From positions 16,739-80,738 of the forward strand of contig CAZBFH010000001.1 in NCBI GenBank assembly GCA_964491185.1: a stretch of DNA of 64,000 nucleotides, given 5' to 3'. The position numbers were made by a program, and so were the translations under genes. Below are positions 12,004 through 42,133 of this stretch, in pieces (the stretch's first letter is position 1; every line of letters begins with the position of its first letter). The stretch is from an uncultured Gammaproteobacteria bacterium (GTDB lineage: Bacteria > Patescibacteriota > Microgenomatia > Levybacterales > UBA12049). A model generated the notes under the pieces. It did no database searches. It saw only the letters and a list, made by a program, of their open reading frames with translations, and was not told where the DNA came from.

Positions 12004-12027
12004 CAAGGCCTCCCTGCGAGGCTAAAG
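12004..12027. repeat. Second copy of the GC-rich motif GGCCT(CCC)TGCGAGGCTAAA with short hairpin potential, directly after the stop of the priming transferase
   Basis: caaggcctccctgcgaggctaaag aligns with 6921-6937 (ggccttgcgaggctaaa). The gcctc/gaggc pair can form a 5-bp stem. Confidence 0.45.
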
Positions 12028-19480: not shown

Positions 19481-22400
19481 CTAGGGCATTATCAAATCTG
19501 AAGTAGGTTTTATTTTTCGATCAACTTCCTCTACATTTCCCCCATCCGTAAATCTAAATACAGGATGCGCTAACGAAGTGCCTGCTGCTTCAATGGCACT
19601 CTTTTCATCTGAGTGAATAAATATTTTCGCATCGTCATTTTTAAATGCGAACCAAACTGCATCAGGAAGTCCAACTGGAAATACCCATGCCTGACCATCT
19701 TTAGTTGGCACATTTACAAAATGGAACTCTGTGTCCACCTGCGACCAATAACTTGTATAAAGTGACTCCATAGAAATAAAGAATCTCTTTGTTTTATTTC
19801 CTGCCTCATGCCAATTAAAGAAAGTGCTTTGATTTTGAATTAAATGAAAAAGGGCAAATACAATTATTACGACGGTTGAAGCCCCCAATGCAATTTCCCG
19901 TCCGCTGTTAAGCAAATATTGATGTAGCTTTTTGAATAGAATTGTAAAAATAAAGACCAACCCCATTGTTGATAGATAACTGTATCTTGAAGTCATATTT
20001 CCCAGACCTAAAAATGGAAGAAGAGATATTACAAAAAACATAAGACCAAATGCCATGATCTTTTTTTCACTCGCTTCAAATAGCTTTGAAAATACTTTAT
20101 AAGCAAAAAATCCTACTAAAACTACCAAAGGAATAATAATTACAAAAATTATTAAATTTTCTCTGGCAAATATTCTCACAGAATTGTAAAAAGATAATGA
20201 CATTGGGCCTATCAAGCCAAGCGAGAAATATCCAAATATGTTTCCGATTATATTGAAAGGTAAATTAAGCGGATCATAACTATAGTCACCGCTAAACCAA
20301 TGACTCTTCGAAACAACTCTAAGAAGCAAATATCCCGCAACTGGAATAAATATCAGGTAGTTCTCAAATTGCTTTGGCAATGTTTTCAGCGATGCTGTGA
20401 ATCCGCTTTTATAAATCTTGTATGCGATCATTAAGGCTGGCGCTACTACTCCTAATTCATGAAACATTAAGGCAAAACAAACACTTAAAATGGCGCCTAC
20501 TAAATAATATATTTTTCTTTTTTCATCCCAAAAAATAAACAGAAGTAATGCTAGAAGCGAGAATACGCCGTTAAAAAGATGTCCAATTGAAGAAATCCAG
20601 AAAATATTTTCAAGTGGTCCACTTAAAACTAGGAATGTGAATGCAGAAAATGCTGCTAGTTTTATATCTTTGAAAATTTTTCTTGCAATGATAAAGAAAA
20701 GGGCAATAGCAGTAAAGTGAAGCATTAAGGAAGACAAATGATAAACAACCTGATTTAGCCAGAAAATTTGATACATAAAGTAGAAATAAATTTTCATTCC
20801 AGGTCTATAGAAAAAACCATCAGAATTTAGAAAATAATTCGTAAATAAATGCACCTGTGAACAATTCGTGCAATCTGCTGCCCAGCGAAGCCAAGTAAAG
20901 TCATCAGCAACAAAATAGTTATTAAGCATTGGTGAAAATAGAACTACGGATGTTATAAAAAGATAAAGAACAATTGCATAACTACTTCCCAACGCTTTCT
21001 TAACTTCATTACTTAAAGTGAAACTATGAACCTGATAAAGCCTGAGAATTCCGAATACAATACCGACTAAAATCCAAAGTAAAAATGCTATCTTTGAAGC
21101 TTCAAATACGTCTATTAATACAGCATTTAAAGACAGTCCTATAACACCCGCTACAAAACCAAGGACGAAACTCTTCGCGAGAGGTGAGTCAATATCAGGA
21201 TATATTTTTTTAACATAAATTCCTAAAATCAGAAATAGAAGAAAGAATGCTAAGAATCCCAAAATTCCAACCTCTCCAAGAATTCTAAGAAAATTATTGT
21301 CTACTGCCAGACTAACAGAACCATAACCACTTCCTATTAAAAGGTTCTTTTTAAATGCTTCAATTGCCCTCGGCCATTCCCCCTGAAATCTAGTTGTAAA
21401 CGAAAGATCGTAAGCAGAGGCTCTCTTAACAATAAAATTTCCCTTTAATATAAGCGCCTGTCCAGACGAACTTGATTGAAGATTCTGAGGAATTTCTATA
21501 AAAAAACTATCTGCTCTTTTAATGACTGGGGAAAGATATAAGTTCGTATATCCAGTTCCCTGCGGCAAATTCTCACCTGTTGAAATATTTACAGCTGTAA
21601 GAATTGGCACTTCTCCGGGTATAAGTCTATAGGGGAGTATTATTGCGTCATCAGGGTCAATAGATTCTTTTTGACTCTCCTTAATGGCATTTGCTAGCTC
21701 TTCTTGATCCCTGACTGTTCTTTGAAGAACTATCTTATCTTTAAAGTACTCCTTAGGGACGAATCTTACATGCCCAACTGATTCACCTGTTGCTGCGTCA
21801 ACCAAAACATCAGCTTCCGAAACGGTACTCTTAAATCTATCAAAAAGCGAAGATTGAAAAGTGACGAAGAAAGTTCCTCCAATTAAAATAACCGGGATTA
21901 GTGCAATAACAAGCTTTCTTTTTTGGAAAAAAAGCAAAAATCCAAGTGAAACAAATAGTACAAAAAAAGAAACACGAGAAACTGTCATTAAAAGAAGCAT
22001 CACTCCCGCAAATGAAATACATGCCAAAATTATTCTGATAATCAAATTTTTCAAACCTAGCGAAAGACTTACCAGGATAGGAATTATTAAAACTAAATAG
22101 GCCGCTAAGTCATAATGACCTGCAAATGTTGAAGGCACACGCGACAATGCTGAAAGAGTAATTGGAGTACCCTTCGCAAACTCTTCATTCATTGTAAGAA
22201 ACGCTGGGAATCCGAGATATTTCTGACCAAAACCATATGCTATTACGCCTATTAATGTAATAACAACCACAGAAACTATAACTGGCATGTGCTTTTTATT
22301 CTTCATGCCTTGATAACCAATGAAAAACAAACTTAGGTACTCTATGTGACGAATTAAACTAAGGAAAGCAACATTTGGATATGCATTTGAAATAGTTGGA

Positions 22401-22753
22401 AAAATAAGAAGAATACCATGAATCGTAGCTACCCCTCCAATTATCCAGAAAGCTAAAATTGGTAAAGTAAGAGGAGTTTTAAGTGTAATTTTCTTTCTGA
22501 CAAGTAACGTTAGCCAAGAAAGAATAACAAATAAAATAACGAAATCCTCGACTCTTATATAAACCCACGTATTCTGTATATCAAGAAGTGGAAGCTTAGG
22601 ATAGAGAGGAATAAATAAAAGCAGGAAAAGACTTTCAAGAAACAAAATGTTTTCCCAAATCCAAGTTAAAGCTTTTCCTGGTTTAGTTTTTAAGAAGCTT
22701 GAGAGCTTGACCATAAGTATTTGTATAATAACTATTATTAGATATCTTACCAA
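19481..22753 (-). CDS. Very large polytopic membrane protein: O-antigen ligase/polymerase (Wzy_C)-like N-terminal half fused to a second multi-TM module
   Basis: 1090 aa. TVSRVSFFVLFV segment resembles the Wzy_C (T.SRg) core. A soluble middle domain is followed by a second TM bundle (about residues 600-1000). The start overlaps the upstream GT2 by about 70 nt. Confidence 0.45.
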   Translation of the reverse strand: MVRYLIIVIIQILMVKLSSFLKTKPGKALTWIWENILFLESLFLLLFIPLYPKLPLLDIQNTWVYIRVEDFVILFVILSWLTLLVRKKITLKTPLTLPILAFWIIGGVATIHGILLIFPTISNAYPNVAFLSLIRHIEYLSLFFIGYQGMKNKKHMPVIVSVVVITLIGVIAYGFGQKYLGFPAFLTMNEEFAKGTPITLSALSRVPSTFAGHYDLAAYLVLIIPILVSLSLGLKNLIIRIILACISFAGVMLLLMTVSRVSFFVLFVSLGFLLFFQKRKLVIALIPVILIGGTFFVTFQSSLFDRFKSTVSEADVLVDAATGESVGHVRFVPKEYFKDKIVLQRTVRDQEELANAIKESQKESIDPDDAIILPYRLIPGEVPILTAVNISTGENLPQGTGYTNLYLSPVIKRADSFFIEIPQNLQSSSSGQALILKGNFIVKRASAYDLSFTTRFQGEWPRAIEAFKKNLLIGSGYGSVSLAVDNNFLRILGEVGILGFLAFFLLFLILGIYVKKIYPDIDSPLAKSFVLGFVAGVIGLSLNAVLIDVFEASKIAFLLWILVGIVFGILRLYQVHSFTLSNEVKKALGSSYAIVLYLFITSVVLFSPMLNNYFVADDFTWLRWAADCTNCSQVHLFTNYFLNSDGFFYRPGMKIYFYFMYQIFWLNQVVYHLSSLMLHFTAIALFFIIARKIFKDIKLAAFSAFTFLVLSGPLENIFWISSIGHLFNGVFSLLALLLFIFWDEKRKIYYLVGAILSVCFALMFHELGVVAPALMIAYKIYKSGFTASLKTLPKQFENYLIFIPVAGYLLLRVVSKSHWFSGDYSYDPLNLPFNIIGNIFGYFSLGLIGPMSLSFYNSVRIFARENLIIFVIIIPLVVLVGFFAYKVFSKLFEASEKKIMAFGLMFFVISLLPFLGLGNMTSRYSYLSTMGLVFIFTILFKKLHQYLLNSGREIALGASTVVIIVFALFHLIQNQSTFFNWHEAGNKTKRFFISMESLYTSYWSQVDTEFHFVNVPTKDGQAWVFPVGLPDAVWFAFKNDDAKIFIHSDEKSAIEAAGTSLAHPVFRFTDGGNVEEVDRKIKPTSDLIMP

Positions 22754-23564
22754 ATAAGTAAACCATCCCAGCTTTTATAAAAAGAGTAAGTCTCACAATC
22801 TGATAACTTAAACCACCTTGGTGTTTTTTATAAAAATATAAAACTCCTTTATAGATATTTATGATTGCAAAACCTTTATTACTACTACCCTGCTCTAGGT
22901 GAATAGTAGAAACATCTGGGAAAAAATACGTTTTATATCCTTTTTTCTTTGCTCTAAAAGAGAGCTCCATATCCTCAACATACATAAAAATATTCCTATC
23001 AAATCCTTCAATTTCGTTAAATAATTTTTTATTAACCATTAGACTTGCTCCAGCCACCCAGTCAACTTTACAAATTTTATCCGGACTAGATTTTAACAGA
23101 CCAAACCTTTCTCCACCAAAAATCATAATGAAAAAATTTAAAAGTGTATAGAATTTTCCTACAGAAACCTGAGGCGACCCGTCAGAATTAGTAAGCTTTC
23201 CCCCTAGAATCACCACATCATTATGTTCTTTAAGAAAATCTGCCATTTTAAGATAACCCTTATCCTTGGTCTCTGTATCAGAATTTAAGAATAAAACATA
23301 ATCGCCTTTTGAGCTTTCAGCTCCAAGATTACATCCTTTTCCAAAGCCTAAATTTTCCAAACTTTTTATTAGTTTTATTTTTTTATGAGAATTAGTAAAA
23401 TTCTCAACTTCTTTAAGATTTTTTTCACTTGATGCATTATCGACAATAATTATTTCAATTTTTTCGTTTTTTATTTCTTGATCAAATTGAAGAATCAATG
23501 AATCTATGCATTTCTTGATTAACTGAGGCGTGTTATAGCTTAAAATTACAATTGATAACGTCAT
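22683..23564 (-). CDS. Glycosyltransferase family 2
   Basis: 293 aa. LSIVILSYNTPQLIKKCIDSL, D-x-D and ED motifs. Confidence 0.75.
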   Translation of the reverse strand: MTLSIVILSYNTPQLIKKCIDSLILQFDQEIKNEKIEIIIVDNASSEKNLKEVENFTNSHKKIKLIKSLENLGFGKGCNLGAESSKGDYVLFLNSDTETKDKGYLKMADFLKEHNDVVILGGKLTNSDGSPQVSVGKFYTLLNFFIMIFGGERFGLLKSSPDKICKVDWVAGASLMVNKKLFNEIEGFDRNIFMYVEDMELSFRAKKKGYKTYFFPDVSTIHLEQGSSNKGFAIINIYKGVLYFYKKHQGGLSYQIVRLTLFIKAGMVYLFGKISNNSYYTNTYGQALKLLKN

Positions 23565-24118
23565 TATCTAAACCAAGCAGCTCTACCTAATTTATATTGG
23601 AGGTCTTTATTGGATCTTTCTCCTATTTCTTTTGCTGGAACTCCACCTACGATTTTGAATTCAGAAACATTTTTGGTGACTACTGCTCCTGCTGCTACCA
23701 CGGCACCTTTACCTATGCTTACACCTGGTAAAATTATTGCTCGAGGGCCTATGAACACATAATCCTCGATTTCAACAGGCGCAGTAACAGCTTTGAAATT
23801 TTCATCTTTTATATCGTGTTCTGAGTTATAAATCATTACCCCCGTTGCGATATCTACGTGGTTACCAATCCGGAGCTTGTCTCTTCCATCTAAAACTGCC
23901 CATTCGCCGACTATAGTATCATTCCCAATCTCAATTCCACCTGGCTTATAGGTGGAAAGAGCCATGTGAATAGTGGAGCCTCTCCCAATCTTCATTCCAA
24001 AAACTCTATAGGAAAAGCGCCTTAAATGATGACTCGGAACAAACCCAATTATCCAAATGAGAAATCCATTTATGAATTCTAAAATTATTGCATTCATTCT
24101 TCTGTTTATCTTACCCAC
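23564..24118 (-). CDS. Hexapeptide-repeat (LbH) sugar O-acetyltransferase with N-terminal hydrophobic helix
   Basis: 184 aa. Repeated [LIV]G-x4 hexapeptides (IGNHVDIATGVMI..IGPRAIILPGVSIGKGAVVAAGAVV). WcaF/NodL-like. Confidence 0.72.
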   Translation of the reverse strand: MGKINRRMNAIILEFINGFLIWIIGFVPSHHLRRFSYRVFGMKIGRGSTIHMALSTYKPGGIEIGNDTIVGEWAVLDGRDKLRIGNHVDIATGVMIYNSEHDIKDENFKAVTAPVEIEDYVFIGPRAIILPGVSIGKGAVVAAGAVVTKNVSEFKIVGGVPAKEIGERSNKDLQYKLGRAAWFR

Positions 24119-25244
24119 GACCTACCCCCTCTAGTACTTCTAAAGTCTGTCTTGCTGATTTTTCCCAGGAGAATTTTTCTACTTGTTTTTTACCCTTTTC
24201 GATCAGCTGCTTCTTAAGATTATTATCTCCTAATAATTTTTTCATTTTATTAGCTATGTCATCTGCGTCATTTGGATCCACATAAAGAGCAGCGTCTCCT
24301 CCTACCTCAGGTAGACTTGATACGTTACTCGTTATGACAGGTGTTTCATAACTCATAGCTTCAAGAACCGGAATACCAAAACCTTCATAAAGACTTGGAA
24401 GAATAAAAAATTCCGCATTCCTGTAAATTGCTGGCAAATCCTCATCTGAAACATTTTCTAAAAACAAAACTTTGTCTTTTACGTTATATTTTTCAGGAGC
24501 ATTTAATATCTCTTCAAATTGCCAGCCGCGTCTTCCGACGATCACCAAACTAACATCAGTCTCAATCTTAGAATATGCTTCGATAAGACGCTCTATATTT
24601 TTTCTTGGCTGAAGAGTACCTACAAAAAGAATATATTTATTTTTTATTCCAAATTTTTTTTCTAAATCTTCCATTTTCAGCTTATTGTTAACAGGCAAAC
24701 TAGTATTGATTCCTGGGTAAATTACCTCTATTTTATTACCTGAAACACCGTATTCTTTGATTATATCACTCTTACTCGACTCACTAATTGTCAGAATCTT
24801 CTCGGATTTTCTAGCTGAATATTTCGTCCATTTTTTAAGCTGAATTAAATCTTTTTTCTTAAAAAGCTGTGGAAAATAAATATATGAAACGTCTAGGATG
24901 GAGACTACAGATTTTTTAGGTGAGAATATTGGTAAATAGTGAGTTGGGGTGAAAAAAACATCAAGCGATCTATTTTTCAATAAATTTAATGATAAAGATG
25001 TAATAGTCCACATTTTTCTAGAGGGTAACACGGTATACCTCCATTTATCAGTTGCTTTGGGAAGATCATTTGTCGGACTTTGGGGCATATAGATTTCGTA
25101 GTTATTTTCTTTATCAAGTTTTGCAAGATTTGTTAAAAGCTCAAAGCAATAAACACTACTTCCTACTCTATTTGGTAGACCAGTGTCTTTGTTATAACCA
25201 AACCTTGGAACCACTGCTTCGTAACCATTAATACCTATTTTCAT
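24111..25244 (-). CDS. Glycosyltransferase family 4
   Basis: 377 aa. EGFGIPVLEAMSYETPVITSNVSSLPEVGGDAALYVDP. Confidence 0.8.
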   Translation of the reverse strand: MKIGINGYEAVVPRFGYNKDTGLPNRVGSSVYCFELLTNLAKLDKENNYEIYMPQSPTNDLPKATDKWRYTVLPSRKMWTITSLSLNLLKNRSLDVFFTPTHYLPIFSPKKSVVSILDVSYIYFPQLFKKKDLIQLKKWTKYSARKSEKILTISESSKSDIIKEYGVSGNKIEVIYPGINTSLPVNNKLKMEDLEKKFGIKNKYILFVGTLQPRKNIERLIEAYSKIETDVSLVIVGRRGWQFEEILNAPEKYNVKDKVLFLENVSDEDLPAIYRNAEFFILPSLYEGFGIPVLEAMSYETPVITSNVSSLPEVGGDAALYVDPNDADDIANKMKKLLGDNNLKKQLIEKGKKQVEKFSWEKSARQTLEVLEGVGRG

Positions 25245-25245
25245 A

Positions 25246-25818
25246 TTAGATCGAGGGATAAATTACTTTTATTTTTTCTTTATCAATTTTTAGAATTTCC
25301 TCTATGTCTTTCTTGCTCGATTCTGAAATCGTAAAAACAATACTAGATTCTTTTTTAAGCCACTTAAGTTTTCTTTTTTGAGATGCAACAATATTTGGAG
25401 AGATCAATAGCCTCAAAGGACTAAATTCTGTTTTACTGTGTGTTTCTTCTGGGTATTTGTAAACAATTAAATCATATATAACTGTCGCTTTTTTTGCGCT
25501 TCTTGTAGGCGGTTCTGTCCAGTCAGATGTAATAAATATATCTACATCTCCAATCAACCACTCAATTGGAAGAATATGTAGCCTATTCCAAATAAAATCT
25601 AAAGCAAGAGGTGGAAACTTAAAAGTTTTTATAGTAACCCTTGGACTTTCCTGAACATTAAATAAAGAAAGATCTAAATCTCGTCTTAAAGATGAGAAAA
25701 ATAAAACATATTCATTTTTCGTATCCAGTTTTAGTAGATTCTCAACAAGATTAGCGAGATAATTCGCTACTCCAGTTTTTGAATACACAACTTGGCTAAC
25801 ATCAATTCCTATTTTCAT
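25246..25818 (-). CDS. GT4 N-terminal-domain-only fragment (190 aa). Truncated paralog or gene remnant, possibly a split GT.
   Basis: MKIGIDVSQVVYSKTGVANYLANLVENL resembles the N-terminus of the GT4 at 14881-15987. The ORF ends at IKVIYPSI, exactly where the C-terminal GT-B domain would begin. Its stop TAA is 1 nt before the ATG of the complete GT4 downstream. Confidence 0.45.
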   Translation of the reverse strand: MKIGIDVSQVVYSKTGVANYLANLVENLLKLDTKNEYVLFFSSLRRDLDLSLFNVQESPRVTIKTFKFPPLALDFIWNRLHILPIEWLIGDVDIFITSDWTEPPTRSAKKATVIYDLIVYKYPEETHSKTEFSPLRLLISPNIVASQKRKLKWLKKESSIVFTISESSKKDIEEILKIDKEKIKVIYPSI

Positions 25819-26046
25819 CTAATTATTATGACGAAGTTTAGCTAAATTTAAAATGACCGCAAATGAAAACAGCAAGAAAGAGAACCAAACTAATTTTTGT
25901 GCTGTAAAAAATACCCATTGGCTAAAAAGAGGAATTGAAACGATCAAGCAAGAGAGTCCCACGATAGCAAACATTTTTGGATCTCTTTTTATAAAGAGCA
26001 ACAGAAAGACTGCTATAAATAGTGTGTCCTGTGGTTTAAGATCCAT
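25819..26046 (-). CDS. Small 2-TM membrane protein directly downstream of the CsbB/GtrB-like GT2
   Basis: 75 aa with two hydrophobic helices. Position suggests an accessory role (flippase or partner) for the polyprenyl-P-sugar synthase. Confidence 0.35.
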   Translation of the reverse strand: MDLKPQDTLFIAVFLLLFIKRDPKMFAIVGLSCLIVSIPLFSQWVFFTAQKLVWFSFLLFSFAVILNLAKLRHNN

Positions 26047-26051
26047 TTGAA

Positions 26052-27032
26052 TTAACTGGAATATTTTAAGAGAACCTTTGATTCGCTTTCGTTCTTACTG
26101 TTTATATTTAAAACCAAGTCAGCAATGAGCCCTGTAAATCCAGCCTGAAGACCAGAAATAATTAAAAGCATACCTAAAAATAAAAGCGGTCTTCTTCCTA
26201 TGGATTCTCCCTGAAAATGAATAAAAGAAAGATAAAGAAGGATTACGAGACCTAGAAAAACTAACAACCCACCAAAAAATCCAAAAAAATGAAGCGGACG
26301 CTTACTATATTTACTTAAAAATACCATTGTCATCATGTCAGGCATTTGAGTAAGAACTTTTATAGCTCCGTATTTAGATTTTCCCCAGCGTCTTTCATCA
26401 TGAACCACTGGAACCTCAGTTACCCTAAATCCTTCTTGTGCAACCAGAAGCGGGATAAATCTATGCATTCCTCCATATAGATTTACTGACTTTGCAGCTT
26501 CACTTATGTATAGTTTCAATCCACAATTATAATCATGAAGTTTTACTCCCCAGAATGTGGACGCCACCAGATTAAAGACCTTTGAAAAAATAATTTTAGT
26601 AATTGAATCTTTTCTCTCTTTTCTCCAGCCAGAAACCATATCATAACCCTCTTTATGCTTTTCTATTAGCTTGTGGACCTCTGATGGCTTATCTTGAAGA
26701 TCTGCATCCATCGTGACTATCAAATCCCCTTTTGCTTTTTGAAAACCAAATGTCAAAGCTTCTGCTTTTCCATGATTTCGTCTAAATGAATAAATACTAA
26801 TATTTGAATCTTTCTTCTCAAGGTCTTTAATCAAACTCAATGTCGTGTCATTTGAACCATCATCTATAAAAACAATTTCGTATTCTTTAGACAGAATCTT
26901 TGCGTGTTTTGTGAGCTCTTCGTAGAAATGAAGAATACTTTCCTCTTCGTTAAAAACTGGAATAACGTAACTAATCATAATTGCGGATCTAAACCTAATT
27001 TTATCATTTCTGAAGCTTTTATCAAAATGCAC
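26052..27032 (-). CDS. Polyprenyl-phosphate sugar synthase (GtrB/CsbB/DPM1-like GT2 with C-terminal TM hairpin)
   Basis: 326 aa. ISYVIPVFNEEESI..IVFIDDGSNDTT GT2 core plus two C-terminal TM helices (HFFGFFGGLLVFLGLV..LLFLGMLLIISGLQAGFTGLIADLV). The true start may be the internal MISYVIPV. Confidence 0.78.
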   Translation of the reverse strand: MHFDKSFRNDKIRFRSAIMISYVIPVFNEEESILHFYEELTKHAKILSKEYEIVFIDDGSNDTTLSLIKDLEKKDSNISIYSFRRNHGKAEALTFGFQKAKGDLIVTMDADLQDKPSEVHKLIEKHKEGYDMVSGWRKERKDSITKIIFSKVFNLVASTFWGVKLHDYNCGLKLYISEAAKSVNLYGGMHRFIPLLVAQEGFRVTEVPVVHDERRWGKSKYGAIKVLTQMPDMMTMVFLSKYSKRPLHFFGFFGGLLVFLGLVILLYLSFIHFQGESIGRRPLLFLGMLLIISGLQAGFTGLIADLVLNINSKNESESKVLLKYSS

Positions 27033-27043
27033 TAGTTATTTTA

Positions 27044-27071
27044 TTGACAATCTAATAAAAGTATATATAAT
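27044..27071 (+). promoter_or_regulatory. Perfect consensus sigma70 promoter TTGACA-16-TATAAT, 11 nt upstream of the 27083 ATG
   Basis: ttgaca at 27044-27049 and tataat at 27066-27071, read directly. There is no SD sequence before the ATG. Confidence 0.5.
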
Positions 27072-27082
27072 ACTGCTCGAGT

Positions 27083-27619
27083 ATGATAACAGAAGCTGTT
27101 CCGGGCTTAAGACCCTTACACGAAACGCCAATACCAGAAAGAGATAGAATTGAACCTTTACTCCTGGCACTAGGAGTTACAAATGTTATACTTGACTATC
27201 CTTTTCCAAAATCTCCTACAGGAGTGAGCTGGGCATCACCAGGTCATTTAGACGAAAGGGTAAGAACAGCGGGCACTGATGGAATTGAACTAAGAAGATC
27301 TACCAAAAGGATGGGACCCACTCTTAAATACGCCACATACCCAGGCGTCTTTACATCAGCTACGCCTCACTGGGTCGAGCAGGAATTTGGAGAAATTGAA
27401 CATCCATCATATCAAGGAGACGATGCTACTTATACTTTTACAAGAGCAACATTTTCTGAAGGACAATATAGGATCCATACTCTTGTTGAAAGAACAGAAG
27501 GAGACGGCGTAGAAGCAGATTTTTCCGTTAAAGACTTGAGATATTTACTCCGTCCCCCAATAGAAACTGCAAAACAAACGCCTGCATCAAGACTTTCTTG
27601 GGCTGTAAGACAAAGCTAA
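27083..27619 (+). CDS. Orphan hypothetical protein. The only plus-strand gene in the window, with GC markedly higher than its flanks.
   Basis: 178-aa ORF with a non-repetitive, globular-looking sequence. Consensus promoter upstream. Its 3' end overlaps the stop of the convergent 27587-29560 gene by 33 nt. Confidence 0.45.
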   Translation: MITEAVPGLRPLHETPIPERDRIEPLLLALGVTNVILDYPFPKSPTGVSWASPGHLDERVRTAGTDGIELRRSTKRMGPTLKYATYPGVFTSATPHWVEQEFGEIEHPSYQGDDATYTFTRATFSEGQYRIHTLVERTEGDGVEADFSVKDLRYLLRPPIETAKQTPASRLSWAVRQS

Positions 27620-29560
27620 ATTCTTAATTAGGATAGAAATCAAACTTATTAAAACTACAGCACTTATCACTAATCCAATATTTACAAATTCCTGAGGTTT
27701 GTAATAAATTTCGAGGCCATAATTCCCATCTTTTGGCAATCTAAAACTGTTAAGATTTTTCTGATATGCTTCACTTCTTACCTCGAAATCCTCCCCTCTT
27801 GCTACCCAACCACTATCAAATCCTTGAGAAAAAACTAGCAAATCTCCTTTTTTAGCATTTTCTAATTTTAATTTATAAAGCGTAGGATTCTTAAATTCCC
27901 AGGAAATAATTAAGCTTCTATCTAAGTCATCCAAGAGAAGTGGTGCTGAAAAGAGATCTGTCTGGGAATACGTCAGATAAGTTTTAATACCTTCGTCAAT
28001 GCTTGTTCTTTGAAGATAATCAATTTTTTCAATTTTATTTATTACCTTTCTTCTTTCAACTTCACTATATTTTCGATCTTTCAAAAAAATTTCTTCATCT
28101 GGATCGGTTGGAATTATGATAAGTCCTACTGAATACCTAGCTAATTCTTCTTCACTGATTTTTTCTATATTTCTCCCCTTGAATAAAACTTCAGAATCGG
28201 ATGACGGAATTGATGGATCAAAATATCCATACTTTTGTCTCTTTGGGACCCAAAGAACTCTTGAAAAAGAATATTGCGAGGAATTATTCTTAAAATTTTT
28301 CAATTCAGAATTTAACTGAACATAGTCCACTGGAATTTCTTTTGGTTTAAAAATCCCGATTAGGTCACCGCTCCAAAATGGCTTGAGAATTAGGAAAAGA
28401 AAAATAACAAATGCGCCCACAATAAGATATCTAAATTTCTCAAATTTATCAGAAATAGAATTAAGGAAATACGGAATAAGAATGCTAAATGAAATTGCAA
28501 TTAATAAATAAAATTTTGTAGAATCCCTAAACAAAGAAAATCCCGGTAATTTTTCAAATAAAAAAATATAAATATCTCCAAAGGGATCACTTGCTCCCTT
28601 TCCTAAAAAAATGCCCACCAAACCGACAACTACAAAAAATAAAATTTCTTTTTTTGCCTTAAACATTAATGACCCAAAGGCTAAAATTGGAAGAACTAAA
28701 AATTCAGGTCTTTGAAAATAAATTTTCCCAAAAATATTTTCAGGCCAGTTGGGATGAAGAAAAGAAATTGTATTTTCTATTGTCGCAAAGCTTAAAAATT
28801 TTACCCCCGCTACAGACGAATAAGAACCCACGAATTGAGCACTTGACCCTAATATAAATGACATAATAGCTGGTAAAATCCAGTATGAATTTATTGCACC
28901 AGCGATCAAAAAGTTTATTAAAATAAAACTTATTTTTTTTAAGTTTATTTTTTTAATAAAAAACGTGAAGTACAAAAATGCGATTAGAAAAGTGAGCACT
29001 GCTACTCTTGGATCAAGCGCAATAACAAACCCCGATATCAAACAAGAAACAAACAAATTTTTATATGTCGTTTCATCAAATAAATTAATTATTCTTAGTA
29101 AAACTAATGGCGCTAATGCATATGCAAATGCGATTCCAAATTGTCCACCTCCAACTATTAAAAGGATATACGTATTAAATGTGAAAATTATTGAAGACAA
29201 ACTTCTAAACAAATCGTTTTTAATAAAAGGTTTTGAAAATTTAAAAGAAGAAAAGATTGATAAGGCAATAAAAGGCAAAAGCCAAAATATCCTTTGAGAA
29301 AACCACCAAGGAATATCTAACGAATTGGAAATAAAGTAAACAAAATTTGCATATAGATCAATCCACATCGTCTTTAAGGCTGATCCTCCAATTCCTCCAT
29401 TTCCCATGTAATCCCAAGATAAAGACCAGAAAGGAAAATAATCACGAGATTCTCTAAAGAGCAGGGGCCAATCATGAGCCACAATTACATATTTTGAAAG
29501 AAACGGCAAACAAAAAATAATTACAAATACAAGAAGCGGTGTGAGCTTAACTATCCTCAT
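27587..29560 (-). CDS. YfhO-like polytopic GT-C glycosyltransferase with large extracytoplasmic domain and C-terminal TM anchor
   Basis: 657 aa. N-terminal AHDWPLLFRESRDYF loop motif and multi-TM core with GASDPFGDIYIFLFEKLPGFSLFRD. C-terminal SQGFDSGWVARGEDFEV...LEIYYKPQEF followed by a final TM helix. Paralog of 29878-33318 and 59872-61524. Confidence 0.55.
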   Translation of the reverse strand: MRIVKLTPLLVFVIIFCLPFLSKYVIVAHDWPLLFRESRDYFPFWSLSWDYMGNGGIGGSALKTMWIDLYANFVYFISNSLDIPWWFSQRIFWLLPFIALSIFSSFKFSKPFIKNDLFRSLSSIIFTFNTYILLIVGGGQFGIAFAYALAPLVLLRIINLFDETTYKNLFVSCLISGFVIALDPRVAVLTFLIAFLYFTFFIKKINLKKISFILINFLIAGAINSYWILPAIMSFILGSSAQFVGSYSSVAGVKFLSFATIENTISFLHPNWPENIFGKIYFQRPEFLVLPILAFGSLMFKAKKEILFFVVVGLVGIFLGKGASDPFGDIYIFLFEKLPGFSLFRDSTKFYLLIAISFSILIPYFLNSISDKFEKFRYLIVGAFVIFLFLILKPFWSGDLIGIFKPKEIPVDYVQLNSELKNFKNNSSQYSFSRVLWVPKRQKYGYFDPSIPSSDSEVLFKGRNIEKISEEELARYSVGLIIIPTDPDEEIFLKDRKYSEVERRKVINKIEKIDYLQRTSIDEGIKTYLTYSQTDLFSAPLLLDDLDRSLIISWEFKNPTLYKLKLENAKKGDLLVFSQGFDSGWVARGEDFEVRSEAYQKNLNSFRLPKDGNYGLEIYYKPQEFVNIGLVISAVVLISLISILIKNLALSYSPRKS

Positions 29561-29891
29561 TTTTTTTAAAAATATAAATATAAATTCCCTGAAATACTCC
29601 CAGAAAAATAGCTACCATACCATAGAATGCTAACTTTTCAGCGATTAAATCCTGTCCTTTTATTAAAAGGAGTTGACATAAAATTATTAGAACTATCGAA
29701 ATTATATAAACGTATCTATACGGAAATCCTAAAATTGAAATCACTATTACTATACTAAATAAAAAAATTACTTGCGAGTCTAAGAAAATATTAAAGTATG
29801 GTAGGGTCGATAAAAAAACAAAAACAATAGAAAGTCCAAGTAAGAGAATCTTCATATTTTTTGGAGTAATATTATTTTTAATTCTTCCCAT
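29547..29891 (-). CDS. Small 4-TM membrane protein (GtrA-like size and topology)
   Basis: 114 aa, four hydrophobic segments. Lies between two YfhO-like genes. Confidence 0.35.
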   Translation of the reverse strand: MGRIKNNITPKNMKILLLGLSIVFVFLSTLPYFNIFLDSQVIFLFSIVIVISILGFPYRYVYIISIVLIILCQLLLIKGQDLIAEKLAFYGMVAIFLGVFQGIYIYIFKKNEDS

Positions 29892-32800
29892 GTTTTAATT
29901 TTAGCAAGATTAATACAAATACAAATAATGTCACTATGCTTATAATTATTCCTATGTAAAATGCTTTCTGAGGTTCGTAAAAGATTGCTATTTCAAAATC
30001 TCCTGTACCGTCAACATACCATGCATTTGAAAATCCGTTTGACTTAATATGATTAACTTCTGGTATTGGGTTAGTTGTAAATACAGGCACTAAACTTCTA
30101 TCAAATACTCTATCTTCTGATTTTAACTCTTTAATTTCTCCGTTAAAATATTCTCTTTTTACTTCATCTTCACTATCCCTGCGATTAAAGACATATGCCT
30201 TCCATCCCGTACTAAAGCTATTTCCAAAATTAAGAAAAAATGGACCTCTTGCATTAGTCACATTGACAACATAATGCGTGGGATTAATCTTTTTAAATGA
30301 GATATTAGGAATATTTTGATCCTCATTTTTTATATTTCTAAATAGATAAATTTTTGGTGAAAGCTTCCTGGTCAGTTTTAGATTCCTAATTGAAATATTG
30401 TTTTTATTTTTAGAAATATTTTTAACAATTAAATTTATGCCATTTGGACTTATACTATTATTTTTTAACTCCTGAGAAACAAGTTCCCAATCAGAATTTT
30501 CATATACATTAAACCTTGAATTTACAGACATGTCATGATCTGTTAAAGTTTCAATTATGGCCTCAGAAGATGTTTTATATTCAAATGTTAATAGATATTT
30601 ATCGTACTCACCAATGTCTTTTAAATTTAGTCTAATACTGTGGCCATTAGCTAAAGAGAACTCATCCAGTCTCTGATCCAAGACTTCACTAGATTCATCA
30701 TTAAGATTAACCCTTAACCTATGCTCACCTTTATCAAGAGTGATCGGACTTTCTAGTTCTATTTCTTTTTCATCCAGCAACATCGATGTAATATTTAATT
30801 TGTCGAAATTCTTAAGCTCATAACTATCCTTTTCCTCAATATTAAAAACTAGATTTTTCTCTTTCAGTGATCTAGGACGCCAAACATCTTTCTCAATCAA
30901 GGAAATATTTGCGTTAACAAATTCCGTTAGGCTAGATACCACTGATCTCAAGCCGTTATCATCTGTATAAAGTGTTTCTAGTAATTCTTTCTGTGAATAC
31001 AGATAAGCGGCTAATTTATATTTATATTTATCATTTTGAAGTCCTTCTAACTGATTAGATCCTTTAAGCGCATTTCCGATCAACTCTTTGTATTCCTGAC
31101 TCAAGACCTGAAGCTTTAATTCATTTTTCTTAGAGCTTACTTGAGACTGATAAAAAATGCCTTCAAATTCAGAAATTCTTGCATGTGAAAACGCTAGATT
31201 TAGATCAATTTTCTGTGCGGGGTCAGTAACTTGAGATCTCAACTTATTTTCCTTACTTATCTTGAATCGATAGAAAATAGATCCAGGCAAAACATTAGCT
31301 TTGGGTACTAATAGATTTATCCTCATTGACTCGTACTCCCGGTCAGAACATAAGATACACTCTGGCTTATTATAAATTTGATTACTAATTTTGTTAATTA
31401 TTCCCTGCTTGCCAGCATTTTCCACATCCTCATTAATCGATAATATTCTTTCCTGTTTTTCATTAGAAATTAGATCTAAGCTACTGTCTAATTCAAGATT
31501 AGAGCTAATTATTTTAAGCGGAGAGTAAAAAAGCGGAAGATAATAAGAAGAATTTACATTTAAAATTTCCCATTCACCAAATATTTTATCTGATTTTATT
31601 TCTTTGTTTTCTAATAATTCTTTTTTTTCTGATTGAATTATATTATCTCTATTTGATTTATTACTATAGATGATATCGTTTCTGACTAAGATTTTATTTA
31701 TTCCGGTTCTACCTAAGAGTTTCGTAAAGGATTCTGAATTGTTTTTTTCAGTTGCTTTATAGATTTGATTAACAATCTCGGGAGCCACTGTATCATTGGA
31801 AACTACTGAATTGTTCAGCGAAAGAAACGATAATGGCTCAAGACTCCAAAATCCCCAACCATAACTATCTACTTTATAGAGTGGGTCCAATTTCGGAATA
31901 AGGATTAACCTATTACTTGAGTCCAAACTATTCAAATATGTGTTTGAATCGTAAACATAATTTGGTACTGAAACTTTTGTTACAAACGGTTTATTGAATT
32001 GAAAAAAGTTAGAATTAAAAAATGGAAAATGGTAAACAAGAAGTATTAATATGACAAAAAATCCAACCATATTAAACATAATTTTATTCCGGATAAACTT
32101 ATTGAGAATTAAATTTAAATAAAAACTTGAAAGAAGAATTAATGAAAACCAAACCGCAGGACCAAATTTATAAATAGCGGATCTAAAAATAGCAAATCCC
32201 GGAATATGTTCAACTAAAAAAATATAAATAAACCCAAAAGGAGGATGTGATCCACCCGCAAACACGATCCCAACAAATAAAACGATAAAAAGTAAATGTA
32301 TTAAATCCTGCTGTTTTTTTATCATATCTTTTCTGTTTTGAAAAAATAATCCAAAAAGTATTAACAGTATTGGAACAAAACTCAAAACAATTAGAGCTGG
32401 ATTATTTATGAAATGATATGAGAATGAGTGACTTGGGTTATCATACCAATCAGGAATTCCCTGAAGCCTAATTAGATTTAGTACACTCGCATACTTATTT
32501 ATGGCGTTCTCCCATGCAAGTATTCCAGATATTCCTCCAATTGAAGAAAGTACACCCGAGTAACCATTTAATGCAGTGTAAATCTGAGGCAAAATAAAGT
32601 AAGCATTAATTGATAAAAATCCTAAGGCGAATAGAGCCACTGTTTTAAATGTATGAACTATTGCTTTAAATCCCGATTCTCTAATATTTAAAATTGTTAC
32701 GAAAACGAACGTTAATCCGTAAACAAGAATTAAAGATCCATAAAGCGGGGGTGAACCCCCACCATTCAAAAAAAATGAAAGAATAGAAAAGAGAATTGTT

Positions 32801-33318
32801 CCTTTTACCAATGAGTACTGCTTATTTAATGTTTTATAAATTATAAGAAGTCCCAAGGGAAGTGCTGCAAATAAAGAAAACTTTGCTCTCTCCGCGATAA
32901 ACCATGCCTGTAAAATAAAGAAATTGTACATGTGGAAAATGCTGCCAAAAATTCTCATAATCCAAAATTCTTTTTGAGGGAAAAAATTTCGTATGAATAT
33001 ATACATAGAAATTCCCATCACAAAAAACCAGAAAACGAAAGCCGCTTTTTGTCCCATAGCTAACGAGCCTAAAATAACGCTAAAGAAAGTTTCCGGGAAC
33101 TGAATAACAAGAAAGCCTTTAAGTATCCCCCAGTCAGTTCCGAAGTTGTGAAGAAAGTTCCATGAGTAAAATAAATTTATTAAATGATTGAGATAATTAA
33201 GCCTGAATCCTGAATCATGGCCTATTATTGCTTCTCCGTTTCGAAGCCACCACAACGGAGTGAGACTTGCCAAAAAAACCAGTAAAATTTCCTTGTGTTT
33301 CTTAAAATTTTTAATCAT
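29878..33318 (-). CDS. Giant YfhO-like GT-C membrane protein (1146 aa) with expanded Asn/Ser/Lys-rich extracytoplasmic region and C-terminal TM anchor
   Basis: N-terminal GHDSGFRLNYLNHL and GGSHPPFGFIYIFLVEHIPGFAIFRS align with the 657-aa paralog. C-terminal FGNSFSTGWKAYV...FEIAIFYEPQKAFYIGIIISIVTLFVFVLILL. Confidence 0.55.
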   Translation of the reverse strand: MIKNFKKHKEILLVFLASLTPLWWLRNGEAIIGHDSGFRLNYLNHLINLFYSWNFLHNFGTDWGILKGFLVIQFPETFFSVILGSLAMGQKAAFVFWFFVMGISMYIFIRNFFPQKEFWIMRIFGSIFHMYNFFILQAWFIAERAKFSLFAALPLGLLIIYKTLNKQYSLVKGTILFSILSFFLNGGGSPPLYGSLILVYGLTFVFVTILNIRESGFKAIVHTFKTVALFALGFLSINAYFILPQIYTALNGYSGVLSSIGGISGILAWENAINKYASVLNLIRLQGIPDWYDNPSHSFSYHFINNPALIVLSFVPILLILFGLFFQNRKDMIKKQQDLIHLLFIVLFVGIVFAGGSHPPFGFIYIFLVEHIPGFAIFRSAIYKFGPAVWFSLILLSSFYLNLILNKFIRNKIMFNMVGFFVILILLVYHFPFFNSNFFQFNKPFVTKVSVPNYVYDSNTYLNSLDSSNRLILIPKLDPLYKVDSYGWGFWSLEPLSFLSLNNSVVSNDTVAPEIVNQIYKATEKNNSESFTKLLGRTGINKILVRNDIIYSNKSNRDNIIQSEKKELLENKEIKSDKIFGEWEILNVNSSYYLPLFYSPLKIISSNLELDSSLDLISNEKQERILSINEDVENAGKQGIINKISNQIYNKPECILCSDREYESMRINLLVPKANVLPGSIFYRFKISKENKLRSQVTDPAQKIDLNLAFSHARISEFEGIFYQSQVSSKKNELKLQVLSQEYKELIGNALKGSNQLEGLQNDKYKYKLAAYLYSQKELLETLYTDDNGLRSVVSSLTEFVNANISLIEKDVWRPRSLKEKNLVFNIEEKDSYELKNFDKLNITSMLLDEKEIELESPITLDKGEHRLRVNLNDESSEVLDQRLDEFSLANGHSIRLNLKDIGEYDKYLLTFEYKTSSEAIIETLTDHDMSVNSRFNVYENSDWELVSQELKNNSISPNGINLIVKNISKNKNNISIRNLKLTRKLSPKIYLFRNIKNEDQNIPNISFKKINPTHYVVNVTNARGPFFLNFGNSFSTGWKAYVFNRRDSEDEVKREYFNGEIKELKSEDRVFDRSLVPVFTTNPIPEVNHIKSNGFSNAWYVDGTGDFEIAIFYEPQKAFYIGIIISIVTLFVFVLILLKLKHGKN

Positions 33319-41425: not shown

Positions 41426-42133
41426 TTATTTCCAAATTTTCCATTTAGGATTTTTCTTCCACATCCTATTAAACTCTTCCATATCCTGATATGTATCCAT
41501 CGCATGCCAGAATTTATCATGATTATAAACCGCTAACTGCTTCTTCTTGGTAAGACGCAAAAATGCATCCTCAATCATTTCTCCTTTTCTTAAGTATGAA
41601 AGAAAACTCTTATTGAAAATCATAAATCCACCATTCACGTATTCCTTAAGGATTGGTTTTTGCCTAAAAGAAATAATTAAATTATTTTCGTCAGAATTAA
41701 TTAAACCCCACTTAGATGTTGGATGGACTCCCGTTATGGTACCGATTACATTTTTCTTTTTATGATATTTTATGAGGTCATTCACGTCGACATCTCCGAC
41801 ACCATCTCCATATGTAACCATAAACTTGTCTGTTTTAATATACTTTCTTAACTTTAAAATTCTTTCCCCAGTTAAAGTTTCTTGACCGGTATCAACTGCT
41901 GTTATGTTAAATTTTTCTTTATTATTTTTTGAAAAATAATCAGCAATCATTTCTCCCTTATAACCAAGTGCGAATATAAAATTATTAAATCCAAGATGCT
42001 TATACACCTTCATTATATGCCAGATGATTGGCTTTTCACCTACTGCAATCATTGACTTAGGCTTAAATTCAGTTTCTTCTCTAAGCCTACTACCTAAACC
42101 ACCACATAAAATAATAACTGGAATATTCTTCAT
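41426..42133 (-). CDS. rfbF: Glucose-1-phosphate cytidylyltransferase (CDP-glucose pyrophosphorylase, RfbF/DdhA-like)
   Basis: 235 aa. ILCGGLGSRLREETEFKPKSMIAVGEKPIIWHIMKVYKHLGFNNFIFALGYKGEMIADYF closely follows the RfbF consensus (GGLGTRL..KPKPMVEIGGKPILWHIMK..GYKGY.IKEYF). Confidence 0.78.
   Translation of the reverse strand: MKNIPVIILCGGLGSRLREETEFKPKSMIAVGEKPIIWHIMKVYKHLGFNNFIFALGYKGEMIADYFSKNNKEKFNITAVDTGQETLTGERILKLRKYIKTDKFMVTYGDGVGDVDVNDLIKYHKKKNVIGTITGVHPTSKWGLINSDENNLIISFRQKPILKEYVNGGFMIFNKSFLSYLRKGEMIEDAFLRLTKKKQLAVYNHDKFWHAMDTYQDMEEFNRMWKKNPKWKIWK

What the first reader, a model, noticed from the sequence alone, without database searches (positions are those of the whole stretch)
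25819..29560. CsbB/GtrB-like synthase with small membrane partner next to a YfhO-like GT-C, reminiscent of the Bacillus CsbB/YfhO pair
26052-27032 has the GtrB/CsbB architecture (GT2 core plus two C-terminal TM helices). 27587-29560 has YfhO-like features (N-terminal HD loop, many TMs, large outside domain, conserved GW.A..G..F..Y.P C-terminal motif and a terminal TM anchor). In Firmicutes CsbB makes C55-P-GlcNAc that YfhO uses to glycosylate lipoteichoic acid. Finding the pair here, with a 75-aa 2-TM protein (25819-26046) and a 114-aa 4-TM protein (29547-29891) nearby as candidate flippases, suggests an analogous lipid-carrier-dependent decoration of an envelope polymer.
Basis: partly seen in the sequence, partly recalled or inferred. 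Interest (0 to 1): 0.5.

Follow-up and report, generated by a model that had tools for sequence, protein, structure and literature searches.

The report
Lipid-sugar synthase plus GT-C transferase
In an uncultured Microgenomates (candidate phyla radiation) bacterium, an enzyme that loads a sugar onto a membrane lipid carrier sits next to a large membrane enzyme that probably moves that sugar onto a surface polymer outside the cell; this is a familiar kind of system built from uncharacterised protein families, not a true copy of the Bacillus CsbB/YfhO pair.

Summary
The four ORFs exist as described, with one correction: the GT2 gene starts at 26978 (308 aa), not 27032.

- **GT2 (308 aa):** a clear polyprenyl-phosphate glycosyltransferase. 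It aligns full length with ArnC (5e-43) and GtrB (1e-30), including the C-terminal TM hairpin.
- **Small proteins (75 and 114 aa):** both belong to conserved families, but neither is GtrA or DUF2304.
- **Synteny:** in 59 species-level loci, the GT2 lies downstream of the GT-C in 33 (56%). The 75-aa protein (54/59) and a GT4N–GT4–acetyltransferase–GT2–1090-aa block are more constant partners.
- **Context:** the pair sits inside a glycan island of more than 50 kb with at least 8 GT-C-like proteins.
a 178-aa gene on the opposite strand, inserted between the two genes, from a CPR-only family of unknown function.

Verdict: a new member of a known kind, of modest interest.

The parts
26052..26978 (-). 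GT2_308: polyprenyl-phosphate glycosyltransferase of the ArnC/GtrB/CsbB type, with a GT-A domain and a C-terminal two-helix membrane hairpin
   Evidence: PF00535 at 2.3e-32. NCBIfam ArnC model PRK10714 matched at 170 bits over positions 7-293 of 316, which is below the equivalog cut-off; PgfS matched at 152 bits. PDB ArnC 5e-43 and GtrB sll0501 1e-30, both full length with DAD conserved. TM helices at 235-253 and 267-285. The 308-aa start is confirmed by relatives and by the source record.
27587..29560 (-). GTC657: GT-C fold membrane glycosyltransferase of an uncharacterised family found mainly in Microgenomates. It has about 13 TM helices, an extracytoplasmic beta-rich domain and a terminal TM anchor.
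29547..29891 (-). sm114: small membrane protein with about 4 TM helices. Its gene overlaps both GT-C genes by 14 nt at each end, which suggests translational coupling.
   Evidence: Coordinates. The family (107-177 aa, motifs LPYFNI and AEK) lies between the 1146-like and 657-like genes in Roizmanbacteria, Levybacteria and Gottesmanbacteria loci. No GtrA hit in 12 members.
29878..33318 (-). GTC1146: paralogous GT-C with a longer extracytoplasmic region and the same C-terminal motif and TM anchor
   Evidence: PF11847 GT-C_AftD at 33.1 bits, above the gathering score of 26. BLASTP against GTC657: 7e-17 over the core (208-391 vs 225-428) and 2e-6 over the C-terminus.
25819..26046 (-). sm75: highly conserved membrane micro-protein with 2-3 TM helices (invariant K4, Q6, D7, G30, P39, F41, F46, F47, T48). 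It is the most constant neighbour of the GT-C.
   Evidence: Present downstream of the GT-C in 54 of 59 loci. Directly next to the GT-C in 28 of 68 loci and directly before GT4N190 in 25 of 57. Alignment A2. No GtrA or DUF2304 hit; 9 of 32 members weakly hit Lycopene_cyc PF18916. This exact sequence is not in the protein collection.
27083..27619 (+). ORF178: inserted accessory gene on the opposite strand, encoding a soluble protein of a CPR-only uncharacterised family. It overlaps the GT-C 3' end by 33 nt.
   Evidence: Two homologues of about 70% identity at the same site. dN/dS 0.16-0.19 and GC3 0.25. Absent from L001, L002, L007 and L052, where the GT-C/GT2 gap is 20-28 bp. Distant relatives found.
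27044..27071 (+). Consensus sigma-70-type promoter (TTGACA-16-TATAAT) of ORF178, 11 nt upstream of the ATG
   Evidence: 12/12 consensus match. The same hexamers and spacing occur in L003 and L005.
19481..25818 (-). Conserved downstream block that travels with the GT-C: GT4 N-terminal half (25246-25818), GT4 (24111-25244), hexapeptide acyltransferase (23564-24118), GT2 (22683-23564), and a 1090-aa polytopic membrane protein (19481-22753)
   Evidence: Pfam assignments. Present in 51, 48, 45, 40 and 38 of 59 loci respectively, in the same order.

Best explanation
This is a multi-component transmembrane glycosylation module inside a large surface-glycan island of a Roizmanbacteria-like (Microgenomates, CPR) bacterium. 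The proposed mechanism has three steps.

1. **Donor synthesis (strongly supported by homology).** GT2_308 sits on the cytoplasmic face of the membrane. It transfers one sugar from a nucleotide sugar to polyprenyl phosphate.
2. **Flipping (inferred).** The lipid-linked sugar crosses the membrane. The flippase is unidentified. Candidates are sm75, sm114 and a Wzx-like protein at 57534-58817.
3. **Transfer (the fold is shown; the activity, donor and acceptor are inferred).** GTC657, and probably its paralogue GTC1146, transfer the sugar to an extracytoplasmic acceptor. The invariant Asp30 in the first outside loop is the likely catalytic residue. The beta-rich C-terminal domain is the likely acceptor-binding part. 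The acceptor is probably the glycan built by the co-conserved GT4/GT2/acetyltransferase/1090-aa block, or a surface protein.

The GT-C appears to be the variable, specificity-determining part, while the GT2 is the conserved donor synthase. This matches the pattern in gtr serotype-conversion clusters.
For: - **GT2.** Full-length homology to ArnC and GtrB, including the TM hairpin and DAD motif.
- **GT-C fold.** A confident model whose best structural matches are all lipid-phosphate-sugar or lipid-diphosphate-glycan dependent GT-C enzymes.
- **Catalytic candidate.** D30 is invariant in the loop after TM1. It is the counterpart by position of the essential K39/D41 of AftD (bioRxiv 10.1101/2019.12.22.885152).
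- **Linkage.** Loci were chosen through the GT-C alone. The GT2 lies downstream on the same strand in 33 of 59, and within 60 nt in 17 of 41. One to three such genes in a genome of about 1 Mb would give a few percent by chance (inference).
- **Conserved order.** The gene order is the same in L001, L002 and L003.
- **Variable GT-C.** L052 keeps the GT2 at 93% identity and the downstream genes at 66-86%, but has a GT-C only 34% identical. Nucleotide homology begins exactly at the GT-C/GT2 junction.
- **Known system type.** This kind of system, and its variants with extra small membrane proteins and non-GtrA flippases, is described in PMC8035078 and PMC11127046.
Against: - 26 of 59 loci have no close GT2_308 homologue within about 8 kb downstream. 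Meanwhile sm75, GT4N, GT4 and the acetyltransferase are present in 45-54. The GT-C may therefore depend primarily on that block.
- No recognised flippase family was found next to the pair.
- The island has at least 7 other GT-C-like proteins that could equally use the GT2 product.
- At least one other membrane-anchored GT2 is present, at 42130-43125.
- The sugar, donor and acceptor are all unknown.
- In this genome the two genes are separated by an inserted convergent gene.
Confidence: 0.6

Rival explanations
It acts on the polyprenyl-diphosphate-linked oligosaccharide made by the co-conserved cytoplasmic enzymes (GT4N/GT4, acetyltransferase, GT2_293, started by the Bac_transf enzyme at 12022-12687). 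In that case it works as an oligosaccharyltransferase, ligase or polymerase-type GT-C. GT2_308 instead feeds the PMT_2-type GT-Cs of the island.
Against: The best structural match is AftD, followed by AftA, and both are monosaccharide transferases that use polyprenyl-monophosphate donors. Direct adjacency to a GtrB-type GT2 in 17 loci is hard to explain otherwise. No WWDxG-like motif appears among the invariant positions of the family.
Confidence: 0.25
2. The pair is a true orthologue of Firmicutes CsbB/YfhO and glycosylates a lipoteichoic-acid-like polyglycerol-phosphate polymer.
For: Same overall architecture (GT-A with TM hairpin; GT-C with a terminal outside domain and TM anchor). A relative matches the C-terminal end of the YfhO profile at 1.1e-6.
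Against: The window protein has no PF09586 hit, and 55 of 57 relatives have none. The TM core resembles AftD rather than YfhO. The GT2 is closest to ArnC and PgfS. No teichoic-acid or GtrA/GtcA genes were seen among the window proteins scanned. The neighbours are typical polysaccharide-repeat-unit enzymes.
Confidence: 0.05
3. GTC657 is a non-catalytic GT-C-like membrane protein. It would act as a scaffold or lipid/glycolipid delivery protein, like MmpA of Corynebacterineae.
For: A weak NCBIfam hit to the MmpA trehalose-lipid delivery family: 34 bits, residues 288-422.
Against: The hit is far below the cut-off of 210 bits. The family keeps an invariant acidic residue in the first outside loop and a set of invariant charged residues (D183/R185, E274, K279, R345/D346/K349), as expected for an active GT-C.
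Confidence: 0.05

Closest known systems
Multi-component transmembrane glycosylation systems of Gram-positive bacteria (CsbB/GtcA/YfhO, GtlA/GtcA/GtlB, GacI-GacJ/GacK/GacL; review PMC8035078)
   Same: A membrane-associated GT-A that makes a polyprenyl-P-sugar is encoded with a polytopic GT-C. The GT-C's nearest solved structures are AftD, STT3 and PglB. Extra small membrane proteins occur in the cluster. The system sits inside or next to a cell-wall polysaccharide locus.
   Different: The GT-C fails the YfhO profile. No GtrA-type flippase and no DUF2304/GacJ-type partner is present. Two paralogous GT-Cs are separated by a coupled 4-TM protein. There is no evidence for a teichoic acid acceptor. 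The host is a CPR bacterium.
Mycobacterial arabinofuranosyltransferase AftD (PDB 6W98; PF11847)
   Different: It is half the size (657 vs about 1400 aa). It has no triple CBM array and no C-terminal ACP-binding helical bundle. Sequence identity is about 14%. No decaprenyl-phospho-arabinose pathway genes were seen in the window.
ArnC/ArnT and GtrA/GtrB/GtrC (Gram-negative lipid A and O-antigen modification)
   Same: GT2_308 aligns full length with ArnC and GtrB. The logic of a conserved donor synthase paired with a divergent, specificity-determining GT-C matches the L052-versus-window comparison.
Three-component pentofuranose systems (GT136; PMC11127046)
   Same: Post-polymerisation extracytoplasmic glycosylation by a GT-C that carries a C-terminal carbohydrate-binding module. 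The flippase is not of the GtrA family.
   Different: In those systems the donor synthase is a phosphoribosyl-type enzyme rather than a GT2, and the flippase is a MATE protein. No such genes lie next to the pair here.

Membership tests
Polyprenyl-phosphate glycosyltransferase (GtrB/ArnC/CsbB/DPM1-type GT2) | GT-A (GT2) catalytic domain with a DxD motif | tested here: met
   PF00535 at 2.3e-32. DAD aligned with the ArnC DAD.
Polyprenyl-phosphate glycosyltransferase (GtrB/ArnC/CsbB/DPM1-type GT2) | C-terminal pair of TM helices after the catalytic domain, with full-length homology to characterised members | tested here: met
   TM helices at 235-253 and 267-285. Alignment of residues 2-288 of 308 to ArnC (5e-43) and GtrB sll0501 (1e-30).
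Polyprenyl-phosphate glycosyltransferase (GtrB/ArnC/CsbB/DPM1-type GT2) | Orthology to one named enzyme (ArnC or PgfS; CsbB could not be tested) | tested here: not met
   ArnC 170 bits against a cut-off of 529, and PgfS 152 against 500. No CsbB model was available. The sugar specificity is unknown.
Polyprenyl-phosphate glycosyltransferase (GtrB/ArnC/CsbB/DPM1-type GT2) | Formation of polyprenyl-P-sugar from a nucleotide sugar | not testable with these tools
   Needs a biochemical assay.
YfhO (PF09586) | Match to the family profile at or above the gathering score (28.5 bits) | tested here: not met
   The window protein has no hit. Two of 57 relatives hit, best 27.8 bits, covering only profile positions 775-829.
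YfhO (PF09586) | Architecture: GT-C fold, outside domain near the C-terminus, terminal TM helix | tested here: met
   AF2 model. Fold matches.
YfhO (PF09586) | Glycosylation of lipoteichoic or wall teichoic acid | not testable with these tools
   No teichoic acid genes were seen among the scanned window proteins. The rest of the genome was not available.
AftD-type GT-C (PF11847) | Match to the profile at or above the gathering score (26 bits) | tested here: not met
   Window protein 16.1 bits. 14 of 57 relatives hit weakly, one at 27.2 bits. The paralogue GTC1146 does pass, at 33.1 bits.
AftD-type GT-C (PF11847) | Closest solved structure is AftD | tested here: met
AftD-type GT-C (PF11847) | Three CBMs and an ACP-binding C-terminal helical bundle | tested here: not met
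   The protein is 657 aa, with one beta-rich domain and a single terminal helix.
GtrA-type flippase (PF04138) | Profile match for the 75-aa or the 114-aa protein | tested here: not met
   No hit for the window proteins, for 32 sm75 relatives or for 12 sm114 relatives, at E up to 1.
DUF2304 / GacJ-type GT-A partner (PF10066) | Profile match for the 75-aa protein | tested here: not met
   No hit in 32 family members at E up to 1.
Multi-component transmembrane glycosylation system | Genes for the donor synthase and the GT-C are linked across species | tested here: met
   33 of 59 loci, and 17 of 41 within 60 nt. The linkage is not universal.
Multi-component transmembrane glycosylation system | A dedicated flippase | tested here: inconclusive
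   No known flippase family lies next to the pair. There is a weak Wzx-type hit at 57534-58817. sm75 and sm114 are untested candidates.

The most novel reading that the evidence does not exclude
In Microgenomates the GtrA flippase role is taken by a new family of micro-proteins. The candidates are sm75, which is nearly universal next to these GT-Cs and weakly resembles the isoprenoid-binding lycopene-cyclase 3-TM domain, and sm114, which is translationally coupled between the two GT-C paralogues. In addition, the exchangeable GT-C cassette next to a conserved donor synthase would work as a serotype-switching module. That module would vary the surface glycan of these presumed episymbionts, and the inserted antisense gene ORF178 would modulate it.
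Probability: 0.15. Interest if true: 0.55.

Novelty: new member of a known kind. Interest (0 to 1): 0.3.

Why it matters
Almost nothing is known experimentally about the cell envelope glycans of CPR/Patescibacteria, although their surface is what contacts host cells and phages.

This analysis gives a concrete, conserved gene set for that surface chemistry: a donor synthase, two GT-C paralogues, two conserved micro-proteins, and a GT4/acetyltransferase/GT2/1090-aa block. It identifies a GT-C family that current profile libraries do not capture. It also points to the GT-C as the part exchanged between related lineages.

The system type itself is well known, so the value lies in annotation and target selection rather than in a new principle.

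Tried and rejected
- **Structured RNA in the gap.** The GC-rich 608-bp stretch between the two genes (GC up to 0.49 against 0.32) looked like a structured RNA. Rfam gave nothing at gathering or E-value thresholds, and there is no tRNA or tmRNA. Codon-position substitutions, dN/dS 0.16-0.19 and GC3 0.25 show it is a protein gene whose GC comes from its amino-acid composition.
- **Mobile element.** No terminal inverted or direct repeats were found at the borders of the insertion.
- **ORF178 function.** Pfam, NCBIfam, PHROGs and PDB sequence or profile searches gave no significant hit. The AF2 model had pLDDT 50.7, so no fold search was run on it. The genomic contexts of three distant relatives had nothing in common.
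- **Sequence-level PDB searches.** The GT-C family profile and the N-terminal part of GTC1146 both found nothing. Only structure comparison worked.
- **afdb50 fold library.** It was not available, so a direct structural comparison with predicted YfhO models could not be made.
- **GtrA elsewhere.** None was found among ten other small window proteins.
- **Literature.** No paper was found on GT-C enzymes of Patescibacteria.


Full report
**Observation**

All genes of the window lie on the minus strand, in a genome of about 32% GC. The four ORFs named in the finding are present at the stated coordinates.

Homologues of the 657-aa protein come from Roizmanbacteria, Levybacteria, Gottesmanbacteria and other Patescibacteria assemblies. 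The GT2 falls in a 90%-identity cluster that contains a Candidatus Roizmanbacteria protein. The organism is therefore a Microgenomates-group CPR bacterium.

One coordinate needs correcting. Relatives, and the source record itself, call the GT2 as 308 aa starting at MISYVIPV, which is window 26978. The GTG at 27032 lies inside a lineage-specific insertion.

**The GT2**

- It carries PF00535 (2.3e-32).
- It matches the NCBIfam ArnC model over 287 of 316 positions (170 bits) and PgfS (152 bits). Both are far below the equivalog cut-offs.
- It aligns from residue 2 to 285-288 with solved ArnC (5e-43) and cyanobacterial GtrB (1e-30). The alignment includes the DAD motif and the C-terminal membrane hairpin.
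- Hydropathy places two helices at 235-253 and 267-285.

Membership in the polyprenyl-phosphate glycosyltransferase class is well supported. Orthology to a particular enzyme is not, so the sugar is unknown.

**The 657-aa protein**

The window protein has no YfhO hit. It has only a sub-threshold hit to the AftD N-terminal GT-C model (16 bits against a gathering score of 26; residues 75-233) and a weak MmpA hit.

Among 57 diverse homologues (alignment A1), the profile results were as follows.

| Pfam model | Members hitting | Region matched |
|---|---|---|
| AftD GT-C (PF11847) | 14 of 57, weakly | TM core |
| YfhO (PF09586) | 2 of 57; best 27.8 bits against 28.5 | last ~55 residues (profile 775-829) |

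A family profile finds nothing in the PDB by sequence.

The AF2 model is confident (pLDDT 87.8, pTM 0.88). It shows about 13 TM helices, a flexible loop carrying the invariant HPNWPEN motif, a beta-rich outside domain at about residues 400-620, and a terminal TM helix at 622-652.

| Search | Best matches |
|---|---|
| Foldseek | AftD (6e-8), then STT3 and PglB |

The protein is therefore a GT-C enzyme of a family that no current profile captures. According to PMC8035078, YfhO-type enzymes give the same solved structural neighbours. 'YfhO-like' is thus fair as a description of architecture, but not as a family assignment.

D30 is invariant and lies in the loop after TM1. In AftD, K39 and D41 in the corresponding region are essential. 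This equivalence is inferred from position, not from a residue-level alignment.

The adjacent 1146-aa protein is a paralogue. BLASTP gives 7e-17 over the core and 2e-6 over the C-terminal motif plus anchor, and it passes the AftD model threshold at 33.1 bits.

**The small proteins**

*sm114.* Its gene overlaps both GT-C genes by 14 nt. The family (107-177 aa, motifs LPYFNI and AEK) lies between the two GT-C paralogues in distant loci too.

*sm75.* It is strikingly conserved, with invariant K4, Q6, D7, G30, P39, F41, F46, F47 and T48 in 32 sequences. Even so, this exact sequence is missing from the protein collection, and in L001 the gene caller chose the opposite strand.

Neither family matches GtrA or DUF2304. 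Nine of 32 sm75 relatives weakly hit the 3-TM lycopene-cyclase domain (best E-value 6e-4). I treat that as a hint only.

**Synteny**

Eighty species-representative loci were fetched through the GT-C alone and screened by tblastn with the window proteins. Fifty-nine of them have at least 7.5 kb of downstream sequence.

| Downstream gene (same strand as the GT-C) | Loci of 59 |
|---|---|
| sm75 | 54 |
| GT4 N-terminal half (GT4N190) | 51 |
| GT4 | 48 |
| Hexapeptide acyltransferase | 45 |
| GT2_293 | 40 |
| 1090-aa membrane protein | 38 |
| GT2_308 | 33 |

- The commonest gene orders are GT-C, GT2_308, sm75, GT4N and so on (16 loci), and the same order without GT2_308 (14 loci).
- GT2_308 starts within 60 nt of the GT-C stop in 17 of 41 loci.
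- This linkage is far above what one to three such genes per genome of about 1 Mb would give by chance (inference).
- It is not universal, and the GT-C keeps other partners more faithfully.

**Wider context**

The window from about 9950 to its end is one glycan island. It contains:

- a phosphoglycosyl transferase (12022-12687);
- nucleotide-sugar genes, including rml genes;
- many GT4 and GT2 enzymes, methyltransferases and acetyltransferases;
- at least eight GT-C-like membrane proteins.

One of those GT-C-like proteins, at 59872-61524, does pass the YfhO threshold (45.6 bits) together with PTPS_related.

**Mosaicism**

L052 shares the GT2 at 93% identity and the downstream genes at 66-86%, but its GT-C is only 34% identical. 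Nucleotide homology with the window starts exactly at the GT-C/GT2 junction.

Other genes also give discordant similarity. The 1090-aa protein is 86% identical to L003 and 76% to L001, whereas the GT-C is 77% identical to L001 and 69% to L003.

A conserved donor synthase beside an exchangeable GT-C is the pattern known from gtr clusters (established knowledge). It fits the idea that the GT-C sets acceptor or linkage specificity.

**The overlooked gene**

In L001, L002, L007 and L052 the GT-C stop and the GT2 start are 20-28 bp apart. In the window and in L003/L006 they are about 610 bp apart.

- The extra DNA begins a few codons before the old GT-C stop. A relic of that stop (AAATGATAAAAT) is still visible after the insertion, and the last residues of the GT-C are changed.
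- The insertion carries one ORF on the + strand (27083-27619, 178 aa). Upstream is a perfect TTGACA-16-TATAAT promoter, 11 nt before the ATG. The promoter is conserved in L003 and L005.
- The ORF is a real gene. It has two homologues of about 70% identity at the same site. Substitutions concentrate at third codon positions, dN/dS is 0.16-0.19, and GC3 is 0.25, like the rest of the genome.
- A full HMMER scan and a profile search found a wider family of 48 proteins. It includes a 350-aa two-domain form in Parcubacteria lineages (Kaiserbacteria, Niyogibacteria, Moraniibacteria).
- No Pfam, PHROG or PDB match was found, and the family has no common genomic context. The structure prediction failed, with pLDDT 50.7.
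- Its function is unknown. Its transcription would run antisense into the GT-C gene (inference).

**Interpretation**

The best reading (confidence about 0.6) is a multi-component transmembrane glycosylation module.

1. GT2_308 makes a polyprenyl-P-monosaccharide.
2. An unidentified flippase moves it outward.
3. GTC657, and probably GTC1146, add the sugar to a surface glycan or protein.

The main rival (about 0.25) is that GTC657 works on the polyprenyl-PP-oligosaccharide made by the more tightly co-conserved cytoplasmic enzymes. True CsbB/YfhO orthology with a teichoic acid acceptor is unlikely (about 0.05), as is a non-catalytic role (about 0.05).

**Verdict**

The system is a new member of a known kind, built from uncharacterised CPR protein families. 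Interest is modest (0.3).

Noticed in passing
window 27083-27619 (+), promoter 27044-27071: A 178-aa gene is the only + strand gene of the window. It lies on an insertion of about 590 bp that replaced the last codons of the GT-C gene, and it has a conserved perfect sigma-70 consensus promoter and an almost leaderless start. It is under purifying selection (dN/dS 0.16-0.19). It belongs to a CPR-only family of unknown function, of which 48 proteins were found, including a 350-aa two-domain form in Parcubacteria.
   Followed up: yes
L052 7971-10036 versus window 26978-29560: A related genome keeps the GT2 (93% identity) and the downstream genes (66-86%), but carries a GT-C only 34% identical and different upstream genes. 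Nucleotide homology starts exactly at the GT-C/GT2 junction. Other genes of the island also show discordant similarity between relatives, which points to frequent recombination.
   Followed up: partly
window 25819-26046 (-): The 75-aa micro-protein is conserved in 54 of 59 species-level loci and has nine invariant residues. Its exact sequence is nevertheless absent from the protein collection, and in L001 the gene caller annotated the opposite strand. It is therefore a systematically missed gene. Nine of 32 relatives weakly hit the lycopene-cyclase 3-TM domain.
   Followed up: partly
window 25246-25818 (-): A 190-aa protein consists only of the N-terminal half of a GT4 (GT-B) enzyme and is followed directly by a full-length GT4. 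This half-enzyme is conserved in 51 of 59 loci, so it is not a pseudogene fragment.
   Followed up: no
window 59872-61524 (-): A 550-aa membrane protein passes the YfhO threshold (45.6 bits, over the C-terminal part of the profile) and the PTPS_related threshold (50.3 bits). It is the protein in the window with the best claim to the YfhO name.
   Followed up: no
window 45185-45877 (-) and 46604-49096 (-): A 230-aa GT2 lies near an 830-aa PMT_2-type GT-C that carries an F5/8 type C (discoidin) domain, with a methyltransferase gene between them. The GT2 shows no C-terminal TM hairpin; its single hydrophobic stretch is at residues 124-142. This may be a second donor-synthase and GT-C pair in the same island.
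   Followed up: no
window 19481-22753 (-): A 1090-aa polytopic membrane protein has a weak O-antigen ligase/polymerase (Wzy_C) hit in the middle and a second long polytopic region. It is conserved with the GT-C in 38 of 59 loci.
   Followed up: no
window 26998-27025 (-): A TTGATA-16-TAAAAT site with an extended -10 TG lies upstream of the GT2 gene. Its -10 overlaps the relic of the old GT-C stop codon, and its -35 is supplied by the inserted DNA. The insertion may therefore have given the GT2 and the downstream genes a new promoter.
   Followed up: no
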